DNA from: Thermoanaerobaculia bacterium
GTDB lineage: Bacteria > Acidobacteriota > Thermoanaerobaculia > Multivoradales > UBA5704
Reading direction: 5' to 3'
Length of the DNA: 64,000 nt
NCBI GenBank assembly: GCA_036275055.1
Contig: DASUEN010000170.1
Span: 8,118-72,117, forward strand
Part shown: positions 50,847-59,455 of the stretch, in pieces
Numbering within the stretch: position 1 is the stretch's first letter
Layout of the letters: the number at the start of each line of letters is the position of its first letter
Made by a program: the position numbers and the translations under genes
The notes under the pieces: generated by a model
What the model was told of the DNA's origin: nothing
Seen by the model: the letters and a program-made list of their open reading frames with translations, nothing else
Databases searched by the model: none

Positions 50847-51355
50847 GCGCGGACCTCAGAGGAGGCCGCCGACGCGGCCTTGGGCTTGGCCACCGTCATG
50901 CGGTCGATCTTGCGTTGCAGGTGGAGGAGCCCCCAGAGGAGGGCCTCCGGCCGCGGCGGGCAGCCGGGCACGTAGACGTCCACCGGGATCACGCGGTCCA
51001 CCCCCTGGGTGACGGCGTAGGTGCGATAGGGGCCGCCGCAGGTGGCGCAGGCGCCCATGGCGAGGGCCCACTTCGGCTCCGGCATCTGGTCCCAGAGGCG
51101 GCGCACGATGGGGGCCATCTTCTCCGTCACCGTGCCGGCGACGATCATGAGGTCGCTCTGGCGCGGCGTGGCGCGAAAGACCTCGGCGCCGAAGCGGGAC
51201 ATGTCGTGCCGCGGGTCGAGGACGGCCATCATCTCGATGGCACAGCAGGCGAGGCCGAACTGCATCGGCCAGATGGCCGAGCGGCGCGCCCAGTTGAAGA
51301 TCTTGTCGTACGTGGTGGTGAGGACGTTCGCCTCGACCGAATCCATCAGGCCCAA
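50843..51355 (-). CDS. nuoB: NADH-quinone oxidoreductase subunit B
   Basis: ..[11 protein letters not shown].., ..[10 protein letters not shown].., ..[11 protein letters not shown].. (N2 cluster cysteines). Confidence 0.92.
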
Positions 51356-51702
51356 CGCAGCGCCCCCCGATTCCAGATGTAGGCGTACCCCGTGATCAGG
51401 ATGACCAGGAACACGGCCATCTCGATGAACCCGAAGAGGGCCAGGCGGTTGAACATCACCGCCCAGGGGAAGAGGAAGATGGTCTCGACGTCGAAGATGA
51501 CGAAGAGGACGGCGATCAGGTAGTAGCGGATGCTGAAACGGTGGTCATGGGCGAAGGTCTCGGGCTCGTTGCCGCACTCATAGGGGTCGAGGTTGGTATC
51601 GACCGAGCTCCCATGGCGCAGCATCCGGGCAGCCACCAGCGAGACCACCACGAAGACGATGGCCACCAGCGTGAACACGAGGATCGGCAGATAGCTCGTC
51701 AT
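51346..51702 (-). CDS. nuoA: NADH-quinone oxidoreductase subunit A
   Basis: 118 aa, 3 TM helices. ..YECGNEP......[18 protein letters not shown].. Confidence 0.9.
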
Positions 51703-51867
51703 GGTAGACCGCCTTCACCTCCGTAGATACGACTTGGGGACTCCCCTTTCGCGTGACGCGGCGTATTCTTACCCGGGGGCTGGGGGGTGTGTCAAGGAAG
51801 GGGAACCCCGGGGACCCGATCTCCACCAGGGCTGGAGGGTTCCGCCAGCAACGCCGTACCCGAGAGA

Positions 51868-52202
51868 CCGTAGAGACGACACAGGCCGTAACGATATCCG
51901 TTCCTCTACCACGGGGACGGCGGGTCGTCTCCGGGGCGGGCTGGGACGTTTCGAACCCCTCCAACCGGGGACGGGGCGCCGAACGTCGTCCCACCGTCAA
52001 CCGGGGCGTTCCGCATGCACGTCATCCAAATCGTGGGATAGGGCATTCCGCACCTTCGCGGGAACCCCTAGAGGATAGTAAGGGTCGTCCTCGTGCCGCC
52101 GCTACGCCAGGGTGAGGCCGGCCTGTTCCTCCGATCCGGAGACGACCCGCCGTCCCCGTGGTAGAGGAGAGGATATCGTTACGGCCTGTGTCGTCTCTAC
52201 GG
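51868..52202. repeat. MITE-like element: 67-bp terminal inverted repeats flanking a 201-bp core
   Basis: 51868-51934 ccgtagagacgacacaggccgtaacgatatccgttcctctaccacggggacggcgggtcgtctccgg matches the reverse complement of 52136-52202 except for about 3 mismatches. Confidence 0.85.
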
Positions 52203-52326
52203 ACACGGTGTCGATGGGCTCTGCGGTGGCGAGTCTACGGATCGTCCTCGAGCTCCAATTCGTCCGGCAGGTCCTCCAGATAGGGAATCCTCGCAGCTCG
52301 TCCAGAGAGAAGGGGCAATACAACGC

Positions 52327-52809
52327 TCATTCTTCTTCAGCAAGGATTTCAAAAGCTTCCGCAAACGAGACGCTTCGGGTTTCGCGTAATTCGTTCACAA
52401 CCTCGAACGCTCGAAATAGTGCGGCCTTTCCGGCAGGCACCCACTTCCCTGTTGCCCAATCCTCCTGTACCTCAAGGGCGCCAGCACGGCACTCCACGAA
52501 ACGGAGTTTCCCTTCTCGGTAGTCTTTACCGGGCCTTTCGCGGGCCAGTCGAAGCACCTCTTCAGCCTTCAAATCTAATGCCGCGAGAAAAAATGCGTCA
52601 GGATGGAAAGAATGCAGATCAAAACCGAGCCCCAAGAGCTTAATCGCATTGGGCCGTATATACTTAAGAAGGTCTCGAGAGATTTCTTCCCCTATCCCTC
52701 GCTCTACAGATGCGAAAGGGTGAGGAATACCCCGAGGTGTGTAGCCTTCCTGCTTCGCCTCCTCCGGCAATTCATCCGTCTCAATTCGGTTGACTCTCAC
52801 GAATGGCAT
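52327..52809 (-). CDS. hypothetical protein (160 aa), translationally coupled partner of the TIR gene
   Basis: ATG at 52809 lies 13 nt inside the end of the TIR ORF. Low GC. No family recognised. Confidence 0.6.
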   Translation of the reverse strand: MPFVRVNRIETDELPEEAKQEGYTPRGIPHPFASVERGIGEEISRDLLKYIRPNAIKLLGLGFDLHSFHPDAFFLAALDLKAEEVLRLARERPGKDYREGKLRFVECRAGALEVQEDWATGKWVPAGKAALFRAFEVVNELRETRSVSFAEAFEILAEEE

Positions 52810-53813
52810 AATACTCTCAACATTTCGTCCAAATAGCGGTTTATGTTTTCGGCCACCGACGATGTCAGGAGCTTAGGAACGGCAGAGATCCTGCTGCTTC
52901 GCGCTTGATACCCGCAGAAGCCATCGCTCGTCAATATTGTAGTGGCCGTATCCAGGATATTTGACAGCTTAGAACCTCGGACTGAACCCTCGTCAACAAT
53001 CTTCGAAAGACTCAGGTACTCCTCACAGGCTTCGAGAAGCCCCGGCTCACCGACCAACTCCCTAAATGCTGCGTTCAAGCCCTCGAAGTCAAACCAACTC
53101 ACTGGGCCAAGTCTTAACTCGATCGAATAACGTTCCAGAGTGCTATCGACTCCGGACATTGGATTCTCTCTCCAATCTAAAAGCCTGACGTTTGGTCCGT
53201 TGAAAAACACAGCGCCACGCGCCTTGGTCTCGGCTTCCTTTTTGGCGAGAATTTTTTTCATGTGGCCATAGAGCGCAACGGGTGGGTTGAACGGATCGTT
53301 ATCGTAAACTATTTGCACTCGCGAGATATTGTAGAATCTATCGCCGGCTCCGACGAGCCGGATCTCTGGAATATCACGAAACAAGCTATTGCTGGCAAAA
53401 TTCTCGACCGAACCCATTTTGTCATATTCTCTGGCTCTTGAAACAAAGAGCATTCTTGCCGCTTCGTTCTTCAGCTCTGCAAGATTTTGCAGATATTTAA
53501 GATGGCCAACCGGAGCTGGAGGCTTCAGATTGAGTTCGGCAAGCAGGCACCAGATCTCGCGCCTCAATGCCCATGCTATTCCAAGCTCAAATAGTACCCA
53601 CTCTGACTTCAAGCTCTCACGAGAGACAATGACTACAAGATGGGTCGCGCTTCTGACTAACTCTCGAAGTGCCTCTGAGACTGCCTGGCCAGGCACCATA
53701 TTCAGCTCATCCATAAGCACACGAAGACCGACAGCCTCCAGGCATTCTCGTACTTCCTTTGCAAATATGGCGTCCTTGCGTGAATAGCTCAAGAGAAACA
53801 ATGGGGCAGCCAT
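52797..53813 (-). CDS. TIR-domain protein with unassigned 200-aa C-terminal domain
   Basis: LFLLSYSRKDAIFAKEVRECLEAVGLRVLMDELNMVPGQ..THLVVIVSRESLKSEWVLFELGIAWAL... Low GC. Confidence 0.75.
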   Translation of the reverse strand: MAAPLFLLSYSRKDAIFAKEVRECLEAVGLRVLMDELNMVPGQAVSEALRELVRSATHLVVIVSRESLKSEWVLFELGIAWALRREIWCLLAELNLKPPAPVGHLKYLQNLAELKNEAARMLFVSRAREYDKMGSVENFASNSLFRDIPEIRLVGAGDRFYNISRVQIVYDNDPFNPPVALYGHMKKILAKKEAETKARGAVFFNGPNVRLLDWRENPMSGVDSTLERYSIELRLGPVSWFDFEGLNAAFRELVGEPGLLEACEEYLSLSKIVDEGSVRGSKLSNILDTATTILTSDGFCGYQARSSRISAVPKLLTSSVAENINRYLDEMLRVLCHS

Positions 53814-53829
53814 CTTGGATCGTACCTCT

Positions 53830-54081
53830 CTATAGTCCAGGCACGTCGTGATTTCTCGACAAACCGCCGACGGTCAAGCCCCAGTTCGCCTGCCAAGATT
53901 GCGAGCCCGATTCGGCGATGTCGCCCGACACGGCTACGAGATCTATGCGGGAGCCCTTGGCGAAGGTCCCCCTGGCGGCTCCGAGATCCTTGAAGAAGGC
54001 CTTTCCCAGTTTGGTGAGGTCCTCGCCCTTGAAGCGACTGTGGGCGCCGAAGTGGAGGTCGGAGAGATGGAGGATGAGCAT
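53830..54081 (-). pseudogene. truncated, frameshifted duplicate of the 5' end of the metallophosphoesterase::TIR gene
   Basis: MLILHLSDLHFGAHSRFKGEDLTKLGKAFFKDLGAARGTFAKGSRIDLVAVSGD.. matches the first residues of 56458..58332. ..LAGELGLDRRRFV.. continues in another frame. Homology ends just after the GNHD codons at about 53838. Confidence 0.85.
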
Positions 54082-54229
54082 GCGGTACCCCGGGTCTTGG
54101 TTCGTGTCTCAGTCCGTTCGCAGACCATTCTATCCTGGACTTTGGGAGGGGCGACTGCTGAGGTCGGCGCCTGCGTGGCCAGCGGAGTGTCGTCTCGTGG
54201 TACTCTCTAAGTGGAAGGAGATCGTGCCG

Positions 54230-54466
54230 ATGAATGACCAAGTCGTGATCCGGGTCGTGCAGTTCCAGGAGGGTGGATGGCTCGTCGCACAGTGTCTGGA
54301 GGTAGACATTGCTGCCCAGGGCAAGACGGAGAGCGACCTCCACTACCAGTTGGGCCGCCTGCTGGTGGGGCGGATCCTGGCGAGCGAGATGCTTGGAGTC
54401 GAGCCCTTCGCTACCCTGCCTCCTGCGCCGAAGCGGTATTGGGACATGTACACCGGGGCAGGATAA
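54230..54466 (+). CDS. small protein, tentatively HicB-like antitoxin fold
   Basis: GGAAGGAG RBS. MNDQVVIRVVQFQEGGWLVAQCLEVDIAAQGKTESDLHYQL.. Confidence 0.4.
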   Translation: MNDQVVIRVVQFQEGGWLVAQCLEVDIAAQGKTESDLHYQLGRLLVGRILASEMLGVEPFATLPPAPKRYWDMYTGAG

Positions 54467-54513
54467 GGGGGCTGGTACTATACTGGCTTGGGTAGGCACC
54501 ATCTGGAGGCGGT

Positions 54514-54762
54514 ATGGCTAGAACCAGAGAAGCACAGGTTTTGCTGGAATCCGAGGAGTACGAATGGTTGGAAGCCATTGCGGCTCAACGCCGGACCTCC
54601 GTCTCGGACTTGATTCGCGAAGCCGTTCGGGACCGGTATCTCTCACTCGCCGAACAGCGTAAGAGAGCCTTCGAGGCAATCTGTCAGATCCACATTCCGA
54701 TCCCAGATTGGGACACACTGGAAAAGGAGATCGCAGAAGCCCATGACAGCGATCTTCCTTGA
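54514..54762 (+). CDS. ribbon-helix-helix antitoxin (VapB-like)
   Basis: ..EYEWLEAIAAQRRTSVSDLIREAVRDRYL... Its end overlaps the start of a PIN-like ORF. Confidence 0.65.
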   Translation: MARTREAQVLLESEEYEWLEAIAAQRRTSVSDLIREAVRDRYLSLAEQRKRAFEAICQIHIPIPDWDTLEKEIAEAHDSDLP

Positions 54763-54841
54763 CGCGAACGTCTTTTTCTATGCGGTCGGGGCTGATCATC
54801 CTCTGCGCGACGCAAGCCAGCAAGTTCTGCGCCGTGCATGA
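54743..54841 (+). pseudogene. truncated PIN-domain (VapC-like) toxin, 32 codons only
   Basis: MTAIFLDANVFFYAVGADHPLRDASQQVLRRA* is the N-terminal PIN strand with its acidic residue, then a stop. Confidence 0.65.
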
Positions 54842-54883
54842 CCATCCGAGGACGTTGAGTTGACCACTCGCCGGAGGAGCCGA

Positions 54884-55045
54884 ATGTCCACATCGCCACG
54901 CCTGAGCCTCGAAGAGCGGCTCCGCCTGTTCGACGAGGCCACGGAGCGACAGCAGGCACGGGAGGCGGGCAGACCCCCGGTGGACAGGGTGACGGAGCGG
55001 GATTGGCGGCGGGAGGATCTCTATATCCGTAGCAGCTCTCGTTGA
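54884..55045 (+). CDS. small hypothetical protein (possible orphan antitoxin fragment)
   Basis: GGAGGAG RBS. MSTSPRLSLEERLRLFDEATERQQAREAGRPPVDRVTERDWRREDLYIRSSSR. Confidence 0.3.
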   Translation: MSTSPRLSLEERLRLFDEATERQQAREAGRPPVDRVTERDWRREDLYIRSSSR

Positions 55046-55275
55046 CTGCCCCGAAGGGGCAAAGGCATGTAGCCTGGGCGGACGCGAAGCGCTGAGCCCC
55101 GGGAAAAGCCGATCCATCCATCCGTTAAAGCCCTGAAAGGGCGACGGCAGCTCATCGTTCGACAGGACTGCCGCCGCCCCTTCGGGGCTTTAGGGGTTTG
55201 TTGGGCCACATCTACCCGGGGCTGGCAAAAGGCGCCAGCCCCGGGCTACATGCCGTCGCCCCTTCGGGGCTGGCG
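55046..55275. repeat. cluster of REP-like palindromic units (GCCCCTTCGGGGC hairpins with GGGCTACATGCC arms)
   Basis: 55046-55078 is an inverted copy of 55238-55270. A third partial unit lies at 55168-55188. The family resembles the 15241..15382 palindrome. Confidence 0.75.
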
Positions 55276-55334
55276 CAACAGCGCCTTTCTATTTTGTCTC
55301 AGAGCTCGGTGAGAGTCCTCCACGCCGATCTCCG

Positions 55335-55600
55335 AGCCCCTCTTGCCAAACTCCAGATCCTCCAGATCGATCTCCAGGTTGTCCTGGAGGGAGGTCTGGA
55401 GCTTCCAGACCTCGGCGTAGATCCTCCACAGCAAGCTCCAGGTCTTCCTGATCAAGGTCTGGACCCTCTGGACCCTGATGCGGGTCCTCCAGACCTCGGT
55501 CTGGGTCGTCCGCAGCAATCTCCCGGTCATCTGCAGCGAGGTCTGGATCCTCGAGAGCAAGGTCCAAGGCTTCTGGAGCAAGGTCTGGACCGCTTGGAAT
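55335..55600. repeat. degenerate 42-bp tandem repeat (about 5-6 units) built around GGTCTGGA/TCCAGACC
   Basis: GGTCTGGA-like cores at 55456, 55498, 55540 and 55582 (42-bp spacing), plus 55393. On the minus strand this encodes 14-aa repeats (V/I)QT(L/S)L.K.W.LL.R. Confidence 0.75.
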
Positions 55601-55820
55601 TCGATTCAGATTATCTGGCCGGTCTTCGCCAGCACAGAACGACCGAGAGCGAGAATCCCGGCGGAGATCAGCACTTTCCAGATATCCTCTGAGGAGGCTT
55701 TCTCCGCCAGCGGGGAAGGCTGCGGGTTTTGATACGGTCCGCTGCCCGCGTAATAGGTCAAAATCATACAAGGGACCGTCTCTCGCGTCCAGACCTGAAG
55801 CTCATGATCGTGCAGACTGA

Positions 55821-55917
55821 TGGCGGAGAGGGCGGGATTCGAACCCACGCGGCGACTTCGAAAGCCGCCGGCTTCCGGGTAGCAACCGGACACTTTGCCA
55901 GGCTCAGTCACCTCTCC
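55821..55917 (-). tRNA. tRNA-Ser (anticodon GCU), class II, 3'-CCA encoded
   Basis: Acceptor GGAGAGG/CCTCTCC. Anticodon arm TCCGG-TTGCTAC-CCGGA. Long variable arm. T arm GTGGG-TTCGAAT-CCCGC. Confidence 0.88.
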
Positions 55918-55918
55918 A

Positions 55919-55995
55919 TGGTGGCTCCGGTGGGATTCGAACCCACACGGGACGGGTTTTGAAGCCGATGCCTCTGCCGGTTGGGCTACGGAGCC
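55919..55995 (-). tRNA. tRNA of uncertain identity: class-I shape, best-fit anticodon CAA, imperfect anticodon stem, CCA encoded
   Basis: Acceptor GGCTCCG/CGGAGCC-A-CCA. D arm GCCCAACCGGCAGAGGC. T arm GTGGG-TTCGAAT-CCCAC. Anticodon region TCGGC-TTCAAAA-CCCGT forms only 3 central base pairs. Confidence 0.55.
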
Positions 55996-55998
55996 AGG

Positions 55999-56077
55999 TG
56001 GTGCCCCTCCTCGGATTCGAACCGAGAACCTCCGGTTTCTGAGACCGGCGCCTCTGCCAAGATTGGGCTAGAAGGGC
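55999..56077 (-). tRNA. tRNA with Leu anticodon CAG but a 5-nt variable loop (class-I shape), CCA encoded
   Basis: Acceptor GCCCTTC/GAGGGGC-A-CCA. D arm GCCCAATCTTGGCAGAGGC. Anticodon arm CCGGT-CTCAGAA-ACCGG (perfect). Variable loop AGGTT. T arm CTCGG-TTCGAAT-CCGAG. Confidence 0.7.
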
Positions 56078-56132
56078 GTGGTTGGTGGGAGTGGAATACG
56101 CTCCCTTTGGCAAAGAACCAAAACGTGAACGA

Positions 56133-56225
56133 TGGCGGAGGGTGAAGGAGTCGAACCCTCGCCGAGGATCACCCGGCGCCCCGGTTTTCGGGACCGGTTG
56201 CCGCACCATCGCAGCGGCACCCTCC
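56133..56225 (-). tRNA. tRNA-Ser-like (anticodon CGA) with Sec/allo-tRNA-like 8/4 architecture, CCA encoded
   Basis: 8-bp acceptor GGAGGGTG/CACCCTCC. 2-nt linker. 6-bp D stem GCTGCG/TGCGGC with 4-nt loop ATGG. Anticodon arm CCGGT-CCCGAAA-ACCGG (C at position 33). 7-bp variable stem. 4-bp T stem AGGG/CCTT. Confidence 0.7.
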
Positions 56226-56252
56226 GGTACTCTCCGGTACTCTCCAGAATGC

Positions 56253-56288
56253 AAAAAGCCCCCGCGGCTCATCACCGGGGGGCTTTTT
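56253..56288 (-). terminator. rho-independent terminator (bidirectional form) downstream of the metallophosphoesterase::TIR gene
   Basis: AAAAAGCCCCC-gcggctcatcacc-GGGGGGCTTTTT. Confidence 0.7.
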
Positions 56289-56457
56289 GGCGTATAAGCT
56301 GATGGCTCTTCAGGTTACACGTCAATCCCCCTGGCGGTGGCCAGCGAAAGGTAGTAACTTGAAGAGAGTCGCAAGCAGCGCATAGCGAAGTCAGTAAACC
56401 ATGTCGAAGCGCGGATGTCAAGAGGGATTTCGATTCTCTTCGCCGGCAGAGGCCGTT

Positions 56458-58332
56458 TCATGTGAGACCTGCCGCCATCCGCCGCCGTAGGGCTTCCCGG
56501 ACAACCTGGAAGTCATCGTCGAGATAGACCTCGAGCTTGCGGGGCATGAGAACGTCCTGAAGGAAGACGAGAATGTCGTCCACGTGATTGGCAAAATCTT
56601 GGACCAGTTTAAACTCCTTCCAGGACTCGGAGCTGGGCTGGAGATTCGGATTGCGGATCAGGACTCCGAGCTTCACCGCTCGCTCGGACCAGTATTCCAG
56701 GTAGGGCGCCCTTTCCTCGAAGCTTCCGGTCTTCACTTCCGGCAGCATGATTGGCACCAGACGCTGGACCAGGTCGTCGGCTTCGCCCTGGCAGCTCTGC
56801 CAGAGCTTGTAGATCTCGTACATGCAGTAGGAAGATCGGAGGTACTTATTGCTGATCACAGCCACGATGTGATCAGCGTGGGTGAGGCGGCGGATGAATG
56901 CCGAGATCTGCTCCCCGGGGAGGATCTGGTCGCGGTCTCGGACGGGGAGGAAGCCGTCCGCGACGAGAGCCGCACAGAGACCCTCGACGGCCTGCGCACG
57001 GATCCTGCCCTCGGGAGTCTCGTCATCTCCCCAGGCATAGGAGATGAAGACCTCTCGGGGCTTCTCGGGGGGCTTCTCGCCCGGGGTGGGGGCAAGGGGG
57101 GTAGTGCCAGGCTCGGAGGTTTTCCCGGTCGCGCGGGTTTCTGCGGGGCGGTGCTCCCGGCCATCGAAGAAAGTGGCGAAGGCTGCGGCGGGGACCGGCT
57201 TCTCGAGGTCGAGCACGCGGCCGTCGCTTCCCGGTGGCAGGTAAAGGGAAAGCTCCTGCCAATACCCACCCGGCTCCATGGGATCAGGAATGAACGCTCC
57301 ATGTCGCAGCTCACCTTTGGCTCTGGCGCGTGGATCGAAGACAAGGCTCCGGGCGCGGATTTCTTTCTCCCTGGTGTCCAGTGCGATGAGACGCACGGAA
57401 AGCGGCTCGTCTTCGGGTAAATTGTCTGGCGTCAGGCTGAGGCTTCCTGCGGAGAGCACCGCCGCGCGACCCTTGATTCTGCTCTGCCAGTCCCAGCTCT
57501 GCTCGTCTTTGGCATGATGGTGGCCATGAAGGATGAGCTGAACGTGCGAGTCCTCGACGATCGCCCGCAGGCGCTCCTGCCCCTCGAAACCCACAATGTC
57601 GCTCTCATACCGCGCGACCAGCTCCGGGTCCAGCCCCTTCTCCTCCATCTCCTTCCGCCACTTTGCAAGGTTCCCGGGCACGGTGACTCCGGGATTGTGG
57701 TGGACAGTCACGATCTTCAGCCATCCGGATCTCTGCGGGGTCAGCCATTCCGTCATCAACGCTTCGGCCTGTTCGCGGCTCAGGAAACCGACGTGATCGG
57801 CCGGGCGGTGCGACTCCTTCTCGCACGAATTCAGTGCAGCCACGGAGAGGTGGAGATCCGGAAAGTCGTACAGGAAGGCTCCCCGGCCCAAGGGGAGGGC
57901 CACCTCGGCGAGGTCCTTCACGCCGTAGAAGCTGAGGAGGAACTCCTCGTAACGATCCAGTTTCACGGCGTCGAGCCGTTTCCGGAGCTCGGCCTCGTCA
58001 AAGCCCTCCTCTTCCTGATCGGCTGCAACCTTCTTGCAGGCGGACCAGGAGACGTCGTGATTGCCGGGCACGAATACGAACCGCCGGCGGTCGAGCCCAA
58101 GCTCTCCTGCCAGAGCGGCGAGGAACAGCTCCCCTTCCTGGAGCTCCGGAGGCTTGCCGGATTCGGACACGTCGCCGGTCACGGCCACCAGATCGATGCG
58201 GGAGCCCTTGGCGAAGCCCCCCCTTGCCGCTTCGAGATCCTTGAAAAAGGCCTTCCCCAGCTTCGTGAGGTCCTCTCCCTGCAAGGGGCTGTGTGCGCCG
58301 AAGTGAAGGTCGGAGAGATGCAGGATGAGCAT
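56458..58332 (-). CDS. calcineurin-like metallophosphoesterase fused to a C-terminal TIR domain
   Basis: MPE motifs LHLSDLHFG, VTGDVSESG, VPGNHDVSW, VHHNP, LHGHHHAKD. TIR: REVFISYAWGDDE..HIVAVISNKYLRSSYCMYEIYKLWQ. Confidence 0.8.
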   Translation of the reverse strand: MLILHLSDLHFGAHSPLQGEDLTKLGKAFFKDLEAARGGFAKGSRIDLVAVTGDVSESGKPPELQEGELFLAALAGELGLDRRRFVFVPGNHDVSWSACKKVAADQEEEGFDEAELRKRLDAVKLDRYEEFLLSFYGVKDLAEVALPLGRGAFLYDFPDLHLSVAALNSCEKESHRPADHVGFLSREQAEALMTEWLTPQRSGWLKIVTVHHNPGVTVPGNLAKWRKEMEEKGLDPELVARYESDIVGFEGQERLRAIVEDSHVQLILHGHHHAKDEQSWDWQSRIKGRAAVLSAGSLSLTPDNLPEDEPLSVRLIALDTREKEIRARSLVFDPRARAKGELRHGAFIPDPMEPGGYWQELSLYLPPGSDGRVLDLEKPVPAAAFATFFDGREHRPAETRATGKTSEPGTTPLAPTPGEKPPEKPREVFISYAWGDDETPEGRIRAQAVEGLCAALVADGFLPVRDRDQILPGEQISAFIRRLTHADHIVAVISNKYLRSSYCMYEIYKLWQSCQGEADDLVQRLVPIMLPEVKTGSFEERAPYLEYWSERAVKLGVLIRNPNLQPSSESWKEFKLVQDFANHVDDILVFLQDVLMPRKLEVYLDDDFQVVREALRRRMAAGLT

Positions 58333-58381
58333 GTGGTACCCCTGAGTCGGTATGTCTTTTCCAGCCCGTTAGGAGATCATT

Positions 58382-59455
58382 CTACCCTGAGAGATTTTCG
58401 ATTTCCTTCGCCGGCCGGGCTCCCAACATTTTCAGGTCGAGCACCGCCGCGGGATCGATCCCCTTCGCCTGGACGAGGACGCGGATCTCCTCGCCCATTC
58501 CTTCCCCATCCAGCAGGGCCATGGCGCCGTGGCGGGTGGCGACGTCGGCGCCCTGGAGCTCCTCGAAGAGGCCGCAGGCGGTGAGCCAGAGGGCCTGGCG
58601 CGTGAGGACCACGGTGGTGAGGCCCGCCGCCTCGCCTTCGCGGATCAGGGTGGTGAAGTCCACGTGGGCCGTCAAGTCCTGCTCCCCCACCTTCACGAAG
58701 GGATTGCGATGGACCCGCTGGCGGGTGTAGCAGGCGAGCGTGCCGTGAAGCCGTACCCGGGGGTCGAAGAGGCGCTCCCTCTCGAAGCCGTAGTCGCAGG
58801 TCACCAGCAGCCCCCGCCCCAGCCGCCGCGCCAGATCGCCGTAGAGAGGTCCCCATCCAGGAGACACGTCTGCGACCTGCCCGGGCTGGAGGGAGACGCC
58901 GTGCAGCAGGCCAAGAAGAGCGGGATCGGACAGCTCTCCCTCCCGCCAGGCGAACGCCCCTTCCTGATCGACGTCCACCCACAGCTCCCCCACCGCCCCG
59001 TCCCCCTTTCCCAGGAAGCGATGGACCGGCAGGGCGTCGAAGAGCTCATAGGAGAAGATCAGCCCCTCGACCTCCCCCTCCCCGATCGCCTCCAGGCTGC
59101 CGATCTGCTCCACCCCGGCCGGCACCTTGCGAGCGATCCGGTCCCAGGCCCGCACCTTCCGCCCCCTATCTACTAAGGAGGAGACCACGTTCGCGAGGTG
59201 CACCCCGGTCCCAAACCCCGCCTCGAACATCTCCGCCGGCTGCCCGAGGGCTTCGTCCAGCCGCCTGAGCAGACGCGCCGTCACCCGTCCGAAGAGAGGC
59301 GAGAGCGAGGCGCCGGTAACGTAGTCCCCGGGCTCGCCGATGGGGACGTCCTCCCGGTTGTAGTAGCCGCCCTCGCCGTAGAGGGCCTCTTCCATGAAGG
59401 CGGCGAAGGGGATGGGGCCTTGGGCGCGGATGCGGGAGTGGAGGCGGGGGAACAT
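58382..59455 (-). CDS. MidA/NDUFAF7-family class-I SAM-dependent methyltransferase (DUF185)
   Basis: ..GPIPFAAFMEEALYGEGGYY.., ..EAGFGTGVH.. Confidence 0.75.
   Translation of the reverse strand: MFPRLHSRIRAQGPIPFAAFMEEALYGEGGYYNREDVPIGEPGDYVTGASLSPLFGRVTARLLRRLDEALGQPAEMFEAGFGTGVHLANVVSSLVDRGRKVRAWDRIARKVPAGVEQIGSLEAIGEGEVEGLIFSYELFDALPVHRFLGKGDGAVGELWVDVDQEGAFAWREGELSDPALLGLLHGVSLQPGQVADVSPGWGPLYGDLARRLGRGLLVTCDYGFERERLFDPRVRLHGTLACYTRQRVHRNPFVKVGEQDLTAHVDFTTLIREGEAAGLTTVVLTRQALWLTACGLFEELQGADVATRHGAMALLDGEGMGEEIRVLVQAKGIDPAAVLDLKMLGARPAKEIENLSG

What the first reader, a model, noticed from the sequence alone, without database searches (positions are those of the whole stretch)
56458..58332. 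Calcineurin-like metallophosphoesterase fused to a C-terminal TIR domain, next to the tRNA cluster
- All five metallophosphoesterase metal-binding motifs are intact: DLH, GD, GNHD, H and GHHH.
- A roughly 130-aa Pro-rich middle region follows.
- The C-terminus is a TIR domain: REVFISYAWGDDE.., ..AVISNKYLRSSYCMYEIYKLW...
- One polypeptide therefore combines a phosphoesterase, which could make or destroy nucleotide signals, with a TIR, which could make NAD-derived signals or deplete NAD. That would be a self-contained signalling/effector defence protein.
- I do not recognise this as a named system.
- It has its own strong terminator (56253..56288) and lies in an accessory patch with toxin-antitoxin debris.
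Basis: partly seen in the sequence, partly recalled or inferred. Interest (0 to 1): 0.72.

Follow-up and report, generated by a model that had tools for sequence, protein, structure and literature searches.

The report
One-off phosphoesterase–TIR immune-gene chimera
The gene is real, but it is a one-of-a-kind splice of the "weapon" ends of two known bacterial immune-sensor families with both sensors lost, so it shows immune-gene shuffling rather than a new defence system.

Summary
The 624-aa ORF at 56458..58332 (-) exists as described. It has a complete calcineurin-like metallophosphoesterase (MPE) and a true TIR fold with an invariant catalytic-type Glu506.

It is a chimera:
- Residues 1-368 are the N-terminal effector module of a metallophosphatase-NACHT protein. 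This is the architecture of the validated anti-phage system DS-8. Intact 1280-1347-aa orthologues (77-83% identical) sit at the same locus in three related Thermoanaerobaculia MAGs.
- Residues 370-624 are the C-terminal linker-TIR module of LRR-Roc-COR-TIR proteins (60-73% identical).
- The junction (LPPGS|DGRVLD) shares at most 2-5 nt between the parents.
- NACHT, Roc-COR and all repeat sensors are absent.

No other protein has both halves among 5.8 billion clustered and 1.84 billion representative proteins, and a junction-pattern scan of JGI metagenome contigs found none.

The gene lies in a variable hotspot between a methyltransferase gene and nuoA, which are 46 nt to 8.1 kb apart in relatives. 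It is bracketed by a 20-nt direct repeat and sits near a decayed second MPE 5' fragment and a frameshifted TIR gene. The "own terminator" belongs to a conserved small unit upstream of the tRNAs.

Both domains look intact, but nothing shows conservation or regulation.

Verdict: a real, lineage-specific, sensor-less effector fusion of modest interest.

The parts
56458..58332 (-). MPE-TIR chimeric ORF, 624 aa
   Evidence: ORF list. Pfam Metallophos and TIR_2, both above their gathering scores.
57229..58332 (-). MPE effector module, aa 1-368, derived from a metallophosphatase-NACHT gene
   Evidence: 77-83% aa and about 84% nt identity to the 5' parts of the syntenic 1280-1347-aa MPE-NACHT genes in L001, L006 and L045. 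AlphaFold2 pLDDT 91.5. Foldseek neighbours are YydB, GpdQ, Rv0805 and SMPDL3A/B. NCBIfam DS9_1 anti-phage phosphoesterase, E 2e-29.
57058..57228 (-). Junction and Pro-rich linker, aa 369-425; breakpoint LPPGS|DGRVLD at about nt 57225-57240
   Evidence: Alignment A1, tblastn limits and codon view. From DGRVLD onwards the linker is the post-COR linker of LRR-Roc-COR-TIR proteins. Model confidence is low here.
56461..57057 (-). TIR domain with its C-terminal helices, aa 426-624, derived from an LRR-Roc-COR-TIR gene
   Evidence: 60-73% identity to the C-termini of 70+ Roc-COR-TIR proteins. AlphaFold2 pLDDT 87.7. Foldseek matches plant NLR TIRs, SPARTA, AbTir and SpbK.
56815..56817 (-). Codon of Glu506 (YCMYEIY), the candidate catalytic glutamate of the TIR
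   Evidence: Invariant in all 76 aligned TIR modules. Aligns with the Glu of the WCLDEL motif of RUN1, RPS4 and L6.
58396..58415 (-). Direct repeat copy 1, the true 3' end of the methyltransferase gene
   Evidence: The 20-mer occurs twice in the window at 2 or fewer mismatches; 0.01 expected by chance.
56428..56447 (-). Direct repeat copy 2, 10 nt after the MPE-TIR stop codon and abutting the conserved TTGACAT box
   Evidence: In the empty-site relatives L002 and L004 the methyltransferase 3' end abuts this box directly.
56245..56425 (-). Conserved small unit (promoter-like box, 22-codon micro-ORF, intrinsic terminator 56253-56288) upstream of tRNA-Ser; not part of the MPE-TIR gene
   Evidence: Conserved in L002-L005, which lack MPE-TIR. 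Terminator scan. Fold z-score -4.67.
58382..59455 (-). Methyltransf_28 gene, the upstream border of the variable hotspot
   Evidence: Pfam E 4e-33. 60 related loci found.
51346..51702 (-). nuoA, start of the nuo operon and downstream border of the hotspot
   Evidence: ORF translations. The distance from the methyltransferase gene to nuoA ranges from 46 nt to 8149 nt in 31 relatives.
53835..54081 (-). Second, decayed MPE 5' fragment (copy B): two deletions and a frameshift, truncated at the GNHD motif
   Evidence: 86% nt identity to the start of the MPE-TIR gene over 187 nt. Sequence reading. 85-87% identical to all other copies, so a paralogue or xenologue.
52327..53813 (-). Second TIR gene (TIR plus an unknown domain of about 390 aa), split into 338-aa and 160-aa ORFs by a 1-nt deletion in an A-run near 52822
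   Evidence: The two ORFs align to residues 3-333 and 352-493 of the single 497-aa protein P0244.

Best explanation
**Origin (shown)**
- The gene is a lineage-specific chimera made by illegitimate recombination.
- It lies in a variable hotspot between a methyltransferase gene and the nuo operon of a Thermoanaerobaculia (Acidobacteriota) genome.
- The resident gene was a metallophosphatase-NACHT NLR-like immune gene with DS-8-type architecture.
- That gene kept its N-terminal effector module (aa 1-368).
- Its NACHT NTPase and C-terminal sensor were replaced in frame, at the natural inter-domain linker, by the last roughly 255 residues of an LRR-Roc-COR-TIR protein (post-COR linker plus TIR).

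**Function (inferred)**
- The product carries two immune effector enzymes and neither parent's NTPase switch or repeat sensor.
- The first effector is a di-metal phosphodiesterase or diphosphatase of the GpdQ/Rv0805/SMPDL3A/MisA type.
- The second is a TIR NAD+ glycohydrolase with Glu506.
- In the parents these effectors are thought to switch on through NTPase-driven oligomerisation.
- The orphan fusion is therefore most likely either kept inactive, as a tolerated by-product of immune-gene turnover, or weakly and constitutively active.
- It is not an established, regulated, self-contained defence system.
- It is probably co-transcribed with the upstream methyltransferase gene and terminated at the small unit's terminator.
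For: **Two separate ancestries**
- Hits divide cleanly into MPE-NACHT/STAND proteins covering aa 1 to about 370 and Roc-COR-TIR proteins covering about aa 370-624. None covers both.
- Breakpoint LPPGS|DGRVLD: L001 continues into the NACHT Walker A region. P0010 shows DGRVLD directly after COR.
- Only 2-5 nt of microhomology lie at the junction.

**Synteny**
- L001, L006 and L045 carry intact 1314-, 1347- and 1280-aa Metallophos+NACHT genes directly downstream of the same methyltransferase gene.
- Over the first 177 nt, copy A is 90-91% identical to the L001 and L006 genes.
- L002 and L004 show the empty site, with the methyltransferase gene followed directly by the tRNAs.
- A 20-nt direct repeat flanks the gene; 0.01 expected by chance.
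- The distance from the methyltransferase gene to nuoA ranges from 46 nt to 8.1 kb in 31 relatives. Cargo includes TPR-CHAT and DndB-like genes.

**Gene turnover nearby**
- A decayed MPE fragment B and a frameshifted TIR gene lie in the same hotspot.
- Decayed family members exist elsewhere: P0002, P0004, P0093 and P0095.

**Enzymatic capacity retained**
- All metal ligands and the invariant Glu are present.
- Both modules fold with high confidence.
- Deviations at conserved sites are not elevated: 6 of 78 for the MPE and 3 of 65 for the TIR, each at about the family median.

**Parent families known**
- DS-8 needs both its metallophosphatase catalytic residues and its NACHT (PMC13092281).
- Calcineurin-like domains and TIR are described as interchangeable effectors on NACHT and AP-GTPase-COR scaffolds (PMC8195603).
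Against: **Points suggesting the product may be selected**
- The ORF is intact over 1875 nt.
- The junction falls exactly in both parents' linkers.
- dN/dS of the MPE part against its orthologues is 0.11-0.16, which indicates purifying selection. That divergence mostly predates the fusion, however.
- Some TIR proteins, such as SpbK, work without an NTPase (my own knowledge).

**Limits of the data**
- No read-level data were available to confirm the assembly.
- No closely related strain was available to date the event.
- Whether the protein is inactive or active cannot be told from sequence.
Confidence: 0.62

Rival explanations
1. A functional, autonomous anti-phage protein. It would be a sensor-less dual effector that attacks NAD+ or NAD-derived nucleotides. 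The TIR would cut the nicotinamide-ribose bond. The MPE would cut the pyrophosphate bond (as MisA does) or process TIR products. Activation would come from direct binding of a phage factor or from concentration-dependent self-association.
For: - The ORF is intact and all catalytic residues are present.
- There is no excess loss at conserved sites.
- dN/dS is 0.11-0.16.
- The MPE is homologous to the DS-9A/MisA anti-phage phosphoesterase, NCBIfam E 2e-29. MisA is an NAD+ diphosphatase.
- A Macro-MPE relative (P0229) hints at ADP-ribose-type substrates for this MPE family.
- The gene sits in a hotspot that carries conflict genes in relatives.
Against: - It is unique among 5.8 billion clustered and 1.84 billion representative proteins, and absent from the JGI metagenome contig scan.
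- It has no sensor domain and no partner gene.
- DS-8 loses defence when its NACHT is mutated.
- It carries R16P and F17L at positions that are 100% conserved in the family.
- Its lineage accumulated about 1.7 times more amino-acid changes than expected from the neighbouring methyltransferase gene.
- Adjacent immune genes are pseudogenes.
Confidence: 0.22
2. A trans-acting accessory of full-length paralogues. Its TIR or MPE module would co-assemble with activated Roc-COR-TIR or MPE-NACHT oligomers encoded elsewhere in the genome. It would add a second enzymatic activity or dampen them as a decoy, in the way truncated TIR-only or TX proteins do in plants.
For: - The TIR module, including the conserved post-COR linker helix (aa 379-389), is 60-73% identical to many full-length Roc-COR-TIR proteins from the same class of bacteria.
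- TIR enzymes act through self-association (established knowledge).
- Multiple paralogues of both families exist in Thermoanaerobaculia metagenome-assembled genomes (MAGs).
Against: - No full-length paralogue lies in the 64-kb window.
- There is no conservation of the fusion.
- The idea is inferential with no direct evidence.
Confidence: 0.1
3. An assembly or binning chimera that wrongly joins an MPE-NACHT gene to a Roc-COR-TIR gene.
For: - The fusion is seen in one contig only.
- The source is evidently a metagenome-assembled genome, since all close relatives are MAGs.
- Both gene families are multi-copy in this clade.
Against: - The parents share no repeat at the junction, with 5 nt or less of microhomology. 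A k-mer mis-join is therefore unlikely.
- The frame is preserved.
- GC and GC3 are the same in both halves: 0.629/0.772 and 0.627/0.786.
- Both flanks are collinear with relatives. The methyltransferase gene lies upstream, and the conserved small unit and tRNAs follow 10 nt after the stop codon.
- The insertion is bracketed by a significant direct repeat.
Confidence: 0.05

Closest known systems
DS-8, a metallophosphatase-NACHT single-protein anti-phage system (DefensePredictor, Science 2026, PMC13092281); bacterial NACHT/NLR-related proteins with calcineurin-like effectors (bioRxiv 10.1101/2022.07.19.500537; PMC8195603)
   Same: - The N-terminal metallophosphatase effector is homologous: NCBIfam NF053861, E 6e-10 over aa 5-102.
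- The syntenic orthologues of the MPE half (L001, L006, L045) have exactly this MPE-NACHT architecture.
- Structural neighbours include SMPDL3A, as reported for DS-8.
   Different: - The window protein has no NACHT and no C-terminal sensor; a TIR stands in their place.
- The score is far below the equivalog cutoff (37.5 against 790 bits).
- DS-8 defence requires its NACHT.
Metis / DS-9 MisA, a PUA-like sensor plus a calcineurin-like NAD+ diphosphatase, partnered with the HAD phosphatase MisB (bioRxiv 10.1101/2025.11.05.686725)
   Same: - The MPE domain matches the DS9_1 'anti-phage phosphoesterase' model over almost the whole catalytic domain. Aa 3-299 match profile positions 196-474 of 486, E 2.1e-29.
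- This makes NAD+ or another dinucleotide pyrophosphate a plausible substrate.
   Different: - There is no PUA-like m6dAMP sensor and no adjacent HAD gene.
- The score is 102.7 bits against a cutoff of 420.
- The substrate has not been tested.
LRR-Roc-COR-TIR proteins (bacterial ROCO / AP-GTPase conflict systems, PMC8195603)
   Same: The last 255 residues (post-COR linker, TIR, C-terminal helices) are 60-73% identical to the C-termini of more than 70 such proteins. The invariant Glu is included.
   Different: - LRR, Roc GTPase and COR are all missing.
- No member of this family appears to have been tested experimentally (literature searches).
Enzymatic TIR domains (plant TNL TIRs RUN1/RPS4/L6/RPP1, SPARTA TIR-APAZ, AbTir, SpbK)
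   Same: - The fold matches, with Foldseek probability 1.0 and target-normalised TM-score up to 0.64.
- The Glu aligns with the catalytic Glu motif.
   Different: - Sequence identity is only 10-20%.
- The partner domain is an MPE rather than an NB-ARC, Argonaute or coiled coil.
- No activity data exist.
Class III cyclic-nucleotide and glycerophospho-diesterases (Rv0805, GpdQ, CpdA) and B. subtilis YydB
   Same: These are the best structural neighbours of the MPE module, with Foldseek E 1e-15 to 1e-11 and weak PDB sequence hits. The metal-binding motifs are the same.
   Different: - Identity is 17-19%.
- The family has its own nearly invariant AALNSCEKESH insert.
- Mre11/SbcD-type nucleases match much less well.

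Membership tests
Calcineurin-like metallophosphoesterase superfamily (PF00149) | Profile match above the curated threshold | tested here: met
   54.6 bits against a cutoff of 21.5, aa 1-274.
Calcineurin-like metallophosphoesterase superfamily (PF00149) | Five metal-binding motifs: DxH, GD, GNH[DE], H, GHxH | tested here: met
   D8/H10, D54, N91/H92, H211/H212 and H271/H273 are present. They are nearly invariant in the 40-sequence family alignment.
Calcineurin-like metallophosphoesterase superfamily (PF00149) | Alpha/beta sandwich fold | tested here: met
   AlphaFold2 pLDDT 91.5. Foldseek matches GpdQ, Rv0805, SMPDL3A and YydB at probability 1.0.
TIR domain (PF13676 / PF01582) | Profile match above the curated threshold | tested here: met
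   TIR_2 scores 47.8 bits against a cutoff of 28, aa 428-535.
TIR domain (PF13676 / PF01582) | TIR (flavodoxin-like) fold | tested here: met
   AlphaFold2 pLDDT 87.7. The top 29 PDB matches are all TIR domains.
Enzymatic (NADase) TIRs | Catalytic glutamate at the conserved position | tested here: met
   E506 is invariant in 76 homologues. It aligns with the Glu of the WCLDEL motif of RUN1, RPS4 and L6. That this Glu is the catalytic one in plant TIRs is from my own knowledge.
Enzymatic (NADase) TIRs | NAD+ cleavage activity | not testable with these tools
   Needs biochemistry.
DS-8 (metallophosphatase-NACHT anti-phage protein) | N-terminal metallophosphatase homologous to that of DS-8 | tested here: met
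   NF053861, E 6.1e-10 over aa 5-102.
DS-8 (metallophosphatase-NACHT anti-phage protein) | NACHT NTPase, which is essential for DS-8 defence | tested here: not met
   No NACHT or other P-loop domain was found in the protein or the window. The syntenic orthologues do have one.
DS-8 (metallophosphatase-NACHT anti-phage protein) | NCBIfam equivalog score | tested here: not met
   37.5 bits against a cutoff of 790.
Metis / DS-9 (MisA + MisB) | Calcineurin-like catalytic domain homologous to that of MisA | tested here: met
   NF053862, E 2.1e-29, aa 3-299 against profile positions 196-474. The score of 102.7 bits is below the cutoff of 420.
Metis / DS-9 (MisA + MisB) | N-terminal PUA-like nucleotide sensor and an adjacent HAD phosphatase gene | tested here: not met
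   The MPE starts at residue 1. The neighbours are a methyltransferase gene and tRNAs.
LRR-Roc-COR-TIR (ROCO / AP-GTPase conflict proteins) | C-terminal linker-TIR module of this family | tested here: met
   60-73% identity over aa 370-624.
LRR-Roc-COR-TIR (ROCO / AP-GTPase conflict proteins) | LRR repeats, Roc GTPase and COR domain | tested here: not met
   None is present.
Thoeris (ThsB TIR + ThsA effector) | ThsB-type TIR with an adjacent ThsA (SIR2/SLOG, Macro or TM) gene | tested here: not met
   PADLOC gives no ThsB hit for this protein, and there is no ThsA-like neighbour.
bSEFIR single-gene system | Full-length match to the bSEFIR model | tested here: not met
   Only a 70-residue match, E 3e-6, profile positions 38-106 of 412.

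The most novel reading that the evidence does not exclude
The chimera is a working anti-phage effector that arose recently and needs no NTPase switch.
- Its two domains would destroy NAD+ at two different bonds. The TIR would release nicotinamide and ADP-ribose. The MisA-like MPE would release NMN and AMP, and perhaps cleave ADP-ribose.
- Phage NAD+-reconstitution pathways that rebuild NAD+ from ADP-ribose and nicotinamide could then not rescue infection.
- It would be a caught-in-the-act example of a new immune protein born by shuffling effector modules between NLR-like and ROCO-like receptors.
Probability: 0.1. Interest if true: 0.65.

Novelty: new variant of a known kind. Interest (0 to 1): 0.35.

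Why it matters
Its main value is as a clean natural example of how bacterial NLR-like and ROCO-like immune genes exchange effector modules at linker boundaries.
- The ancestral state is documented by intact MPE-NACHT genes at the same locus in sister genomes.
- The empty site and leftover debris are also visible in the same hotspot.

If the protein proved active, two things would follow:
- A metallophosphatase and a TIR can operate without an NTPase switch.
- The two known ways of destroying NAD+ in defence would be combined in one protein.

As it stands it is a single occurrence in one metagenome-assembled genome, with no evidence of conservation, regulation or phenotype. It does not define a new system.

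Tried and rejected
- **Named defence systems.** PADLOC gave only partial N-terminal hits (PDC-S60; an 'Effector/Endonuclease' model over about 100 aa) and a 70-aa bSEFIR hit. The protein is not a member of any of these.
- **Thoeris.** There is no ThsB hit and no ThsA neighbour.
- **Mre11/SbcD-type nuclease reading of the MPE.** The NCBIfam sbcd model scores 33 bits against a cutoff of 77.65. Mre11 ranks far below GpdQ and Rv0805 in Foldseek. Rejected in favour of a phosphodiesterase or diphosphatase.
- **Other MPE-TIR fusions.**
  - The word-indexed search found none among its best 120 hits.
  - The exhaustive phmmer search found none among its best 150 hits. The one two-stretch hit carrying a TIR, P0182, is TIR-TIR.
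  - The degenerate junction pattern in JGI metagenome contigs gave 10 chance matches, none encoding a relative.
  - Distant MPE-TIR fusions from other subfamilies, scoring below about 180 bits, cannot be excluded.
- **Source record.** An exact-sequence look-up of the window protein found nothing on record.
- **Literature on an MPE-TIR architecture.** Nothing was found.
- **Simple deletion between neighbouring genes.** No Roc-COR-TIR gene lies within 10 kb of the MPE-NACHT genes in L001, L006 or L045, nor anywhere in the window. The donor's location is unknown.
- **The terminator as the gene's own.** Rejected.
- **The small unit as a structured sRNA.** There is no Rfam hit and no covariation support.
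- **Dating the fusion by dN/dS.** The signal is confounded by divergence that predates the fusion.
Full report
**1. Observation**

The ORF 56458..58332 on the minus strand encodes 624 aa.
- Pfam finds Metallophos on aa 1-274 (54.6 bits, cutoff 21.5) and TIR_2 on aa 428-535 (47.8 bits, cutoff 28).
- All five metallophosphoesterase (MPE) motifs are present: D8-x-H10, G53-D54, G90-N91-H92-D93, H211/H212 and G270-H271-x-H273. The quoted TIR strings are at aa 429 and 502.
- The tRNA cluster lies at 55821-56225.

Two details of the finding are wrong.
- The MPE module is folded with high confidence to about aa 360, and the first TIR strand begins at aa 427. The Pro-rich flexible linker is therefore about 60 residues, not 130.
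- The terminator at 56253-56288 belongs to a conserved small unit upstream of tRNA-Ser. That unit is present in relatives that lack this gene.

**2. The protein is a chimera of two families**

A search of 5.8 billion clustered proteins returned two classes of hits that do not overlap.
- Proteins matching aa 1 to about 370 are an MPE fused to NACHT, NB-ARC, AAA_16 or nSTAND1 NTPases.
- Proteins matching about aa 370-624 at 60-73% identity are LRR-Roc-COR-TIR proteins, with this segment at their extreme C-terminus.

The alignment fixes the breakpoint:
- window: ...LSLYLPPGS|DGRVLDLEKPVPAAAF...
- MPE-NACHT relatives: ...LPPGF EPKKSK..., continuing into the Walker A region
- P0010: ...SALGSVI DGRVLDIEDKPVPAAAF..., directly after COR

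At the nucleotide level the parents share at most 2-5 nt at the junction. No NACHT, Roc, COR or LRR sequence occurs anywhere in the 64-kb window.

**3. Genomic history**

The neighbouring Methyltransf_28 gene recovered 60 loci from Thermoanaerobaculia and other Acidobacteriota MAGs.
- In L001, L006 and L045 the same position downstream of the methyltransferase gene holds an intact 1314-, 1347- or 1280-aa Metallophos+NACHT gene. Its first ~363-370 residues are 77-83% identical to the window protein, and about 84% identical at the nucleotide level.
- Over the first 177 nt the window copy is 90-91% identical to the L001 and L006 genes, so it belongs to their lineage.
- In L002 and L004 the methyltransferase gene is followed directly by the small unit and the tRNA cluster. 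This is the empty site.
- In the window the gene, with a 49-nt leader and a 10-nt trailer, is bracketed by a 20-nt direct repeat of the methyltransferase 3' end. The copies lie at 58396-58415 and 56428-56447, with 0.01 matches expected by chance.
- The whole interval between the methyltransferase gene and nuoA is a hotspot. It ranges from 46 nt to 8149 nt in 31 relatives, and ten have 150 nt or less.
- Cargo in relatives includes TPR-CHAT, a subtilase, a DndB-like protein, glycosyltransferases and a histidine kinase.
- The same interval in the window holds a second, decayed MPE 5' fragment at 53835-54081. It is 86% identical over 187 nt, carries two deletions and is truncated at the GNHD motif.
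- That fragment abuts another TIR gene that a 1-nt deletion in an A-run has split into 338-aa and 160-aa ORFs.
- Decayed MPE-NACHT and Roc-COR-TIR genes are common in the databases, for example P0002, P0004, P0093 and P0095. This fits rapid birth-and-death turnover.

**4. Uniqueness**

- Apart from the window's own protein, no hit carries both domains.
- An exhaustive phmmer scan of 1.84 billion representatives gave 4514 hits. The best 150 each match only one half. The one two-stretch hit carrying a TIR, P0182, is TIR-TIR.
- A degenerate pattern for PPGSDGRVLD in 241 million metagenome records gave 10 chance matches. None encodes a relative.
- I still judge the join to be biological. There is no shared repeat at the junction, the frame is preserved, and GC/GC3 is equal in both halves. 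The flanks are collinear with relatives, and a significant direct repeat brackets the gene.

**5. Integrity**

- In the 40-sequence MPE alignment the metal ligands are nearly invariant and are retained.
- In the 76-sequence TIR alignment Glu506 is invariant. It aligns with the Glu of the WCLDEL motif of RUN1, RPS4 and L6.
- At columns conserved at 80% or more, the window deviates at 6 of 78 MPE positions and 3 of 65 TIR positions. Both are at about the family median.
- Two of the MPE deviations, R16P and F17L, hit 100%-conserved positions.
- dN/dS of the MPE half against its orthologues is 0.11-0.16. Among intact MPE-NACHT genes it is 0.08-0.10.
- The window lineage has about 1.7 times more private amino-acid changes than expected from the methyltransferase gene.
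- This amounts to mild acceleration, not decay, and most of the divergence predates the fusion.

**6. Structure**

- The TIR module model (pLDDT 87.7) matches plant NLR TIRs, SPARTA TIR-APAZ, AbTir and SpbK. The C-terminal helices are part of the TIR fold and not an extra sensor domain.
- The MPE model (pLDDT 91.5) is closest to B. subtilis YydB, GpdQ, Rv0805, Lmo2642 and SMPDL3A/B. Mre11 matches far less well.

**7. What is known**

- NCBIfam places the MPE nearest two experimentally validated anti-phage proteins.
  - DS9_1 'anti-phage phosphoesterase': E 2e-29 over aa 3-299.
  - DS8: E 6e-10 over aa 5-102.
  - Both scores are far below the equivalog cutoffs.
- DS-8 is a metallophosphatase-NACHT single-protein system. 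Both its catalytic residues and its NACHT are needed (PMC13092281).
- DS-9 has the same metallophosphatase-plus-HAD gene composition as Metis. The Metis protein MisA is an NAD+ diphosphatase yielding NMN and AMP (bioRxiv 10.1101/2025.11.05.686725).
- Calcineurin-like and TIR domains are described as interchangeable effectors on NACHT/STAND scaffolds (PMC8195603; bioRxiv 10.1101/2022.07.19.500537). LRR-AP-GTPase(Roc)-COR scaffolds carry at least 24 alternative C-terminal effector domains.
- I found no description of an MPE-TIR protein.

**8. Mechanism**

Shown: an in-frame replacement of the NACHT-sensor part of a resident DS-8-like gene by the effector tail of a Roc-COR-TIR gene. The result is a protein with two effector enzymes and no switch.

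Inferred:
- The MPE is a phosphodiesterase or diphosphatase, possibly acting on NAD+ or ADP-ribose-type nucleotides. A Macro-MPE relative, P0229, points the same way.
- The TIR is an NAD+ glycohydrolase.
- Without NTPase-driven assembly the fusion is most likely an inactive or weakly active orphan that is tolerated in a turnover hotspot.
- No promoter-like site on the coding strand was found upstream of it. It is therefore probably co-transcribed with the methyltransferase gene.

Rivals, with my confidence in each:
- an autonomous dual NAD+-directed defence protein, about 0.22
- a trans-acting partner or decoy of full-length paralogues, about 0.1
- an assembly artefact, about 0.05

**9. Verdict**

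The 'self-contained defence system' reading is only partly supported. This is a new domain combination built from two known kinds, seen once. Interest is modest (0.35). It would rise if read-level validation and activity or phage assays showed that a switch-less dual effector functions.

Noticed in passing
window 56245-56425 (-): A conserved small unit lies directly upstream of the tRNA Ser/Leu cluster. It has a TTGACAT promoter-like box, a 22-codon micro-ORF (MRCLRLSSSYYLSLATARGIDV*) and a strong terminator. Ten of its 22 codons are Leu, Ser or Tyr, and several are exactly those read by the downstream tRNAs (TTG, CTG, TCG, AGT; CTC and TAC in relatives). Differences among the 5 copies include an in-frame 3-nt indel and several synonymous changes. 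It could be a leader-peptide attenuator of a tRNA operon. There is no Rfam hit and no covariation support for the large hairpin.
   Followed up: partly
window 53835-54081 (-): A second copy of the MPE gene's 5' end. It is 86% identical over 187 nt, carries two deletions and a frameshift, and is truncated at the GNHD motif. It lies about 20 nt upstream of another TIR gene, so MPE and TIR sequences are juxtaposed twice in this hotspot.
   Followed up: yes
window 52327-53813 (-): A TIR gene with an unannotated C-terminal domain of about 390 aa, split by a 1-nt deletion in an A-run near 52822. The intact form is the 497-aa protein P0244. Other family members replace the TIR with a transmembrane or HTH N-terminus. 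The family has no Pfam, NCBIfam or PADLOC assignment beyond the TIR.
   Followed up: partly
window 51868-51939 and 52131-52202: A 72-nt inverted repeat, 94% complementary with 191 nt between the arms. It lies between the split TIR gene and the nuoA promoter region and may be a MITE-like element or insertion scar.
   Followed up: no
window 55048-55271: A palindromic element containing an Acido-Lenti-1 RNA match (55215-55271, 39.6 bits, gathering score 37). The element recurs at 90.7% identity just upstream of the MPE-NACHT gene in L006 (11997-12220).
   Followed up: no
window 55420-55598: Six copies of a degenerate repeat with 21-nt periodicity (heptad-like if translated), inside overlapping ORFs of unclear coding status.
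   Followed up: no
window 55821-56225 compared with L002 and L004: The window's tRNA cluster is Ser(CGA)-Leu(CAG)-Leu(CAA)-Ser(GCT). Relatives carry an extra tRNA-Leu(GAG), and L005 also carries tRNA-Tyr, so the cluster itself varies.
   Followed up: no
Interval between the methyltransferase gene and nuoA: window 51702-58382; loci L001-L058: This intergenic site is a variable hotspot across Thermoanaerobaculia. It ranges from 46 nt to 8.1 kb, with cargo including MPE-NACHT, TPR-CHAT plus a subtilase, a DndB-like protein, GT4 glycosyltransferases and a histidine kinase.
   Followed up: partly
P0229, a relative of the MPE module: A Macro-MPE fusion (Macro on aa 27-111, E 1e-4; MPE on aa 240-516) within the same MPE family. 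It hints that the family acts on ADP-ribose-type nucleotides.
   Followed up: no
window 54514-54762 (+): A ribbon-helix-helix (CopG-type) antitoxin-like ORF of 82 aa with no recognisable intact toxin partner. Homologous DNA is present in L003.
   Followed up: no
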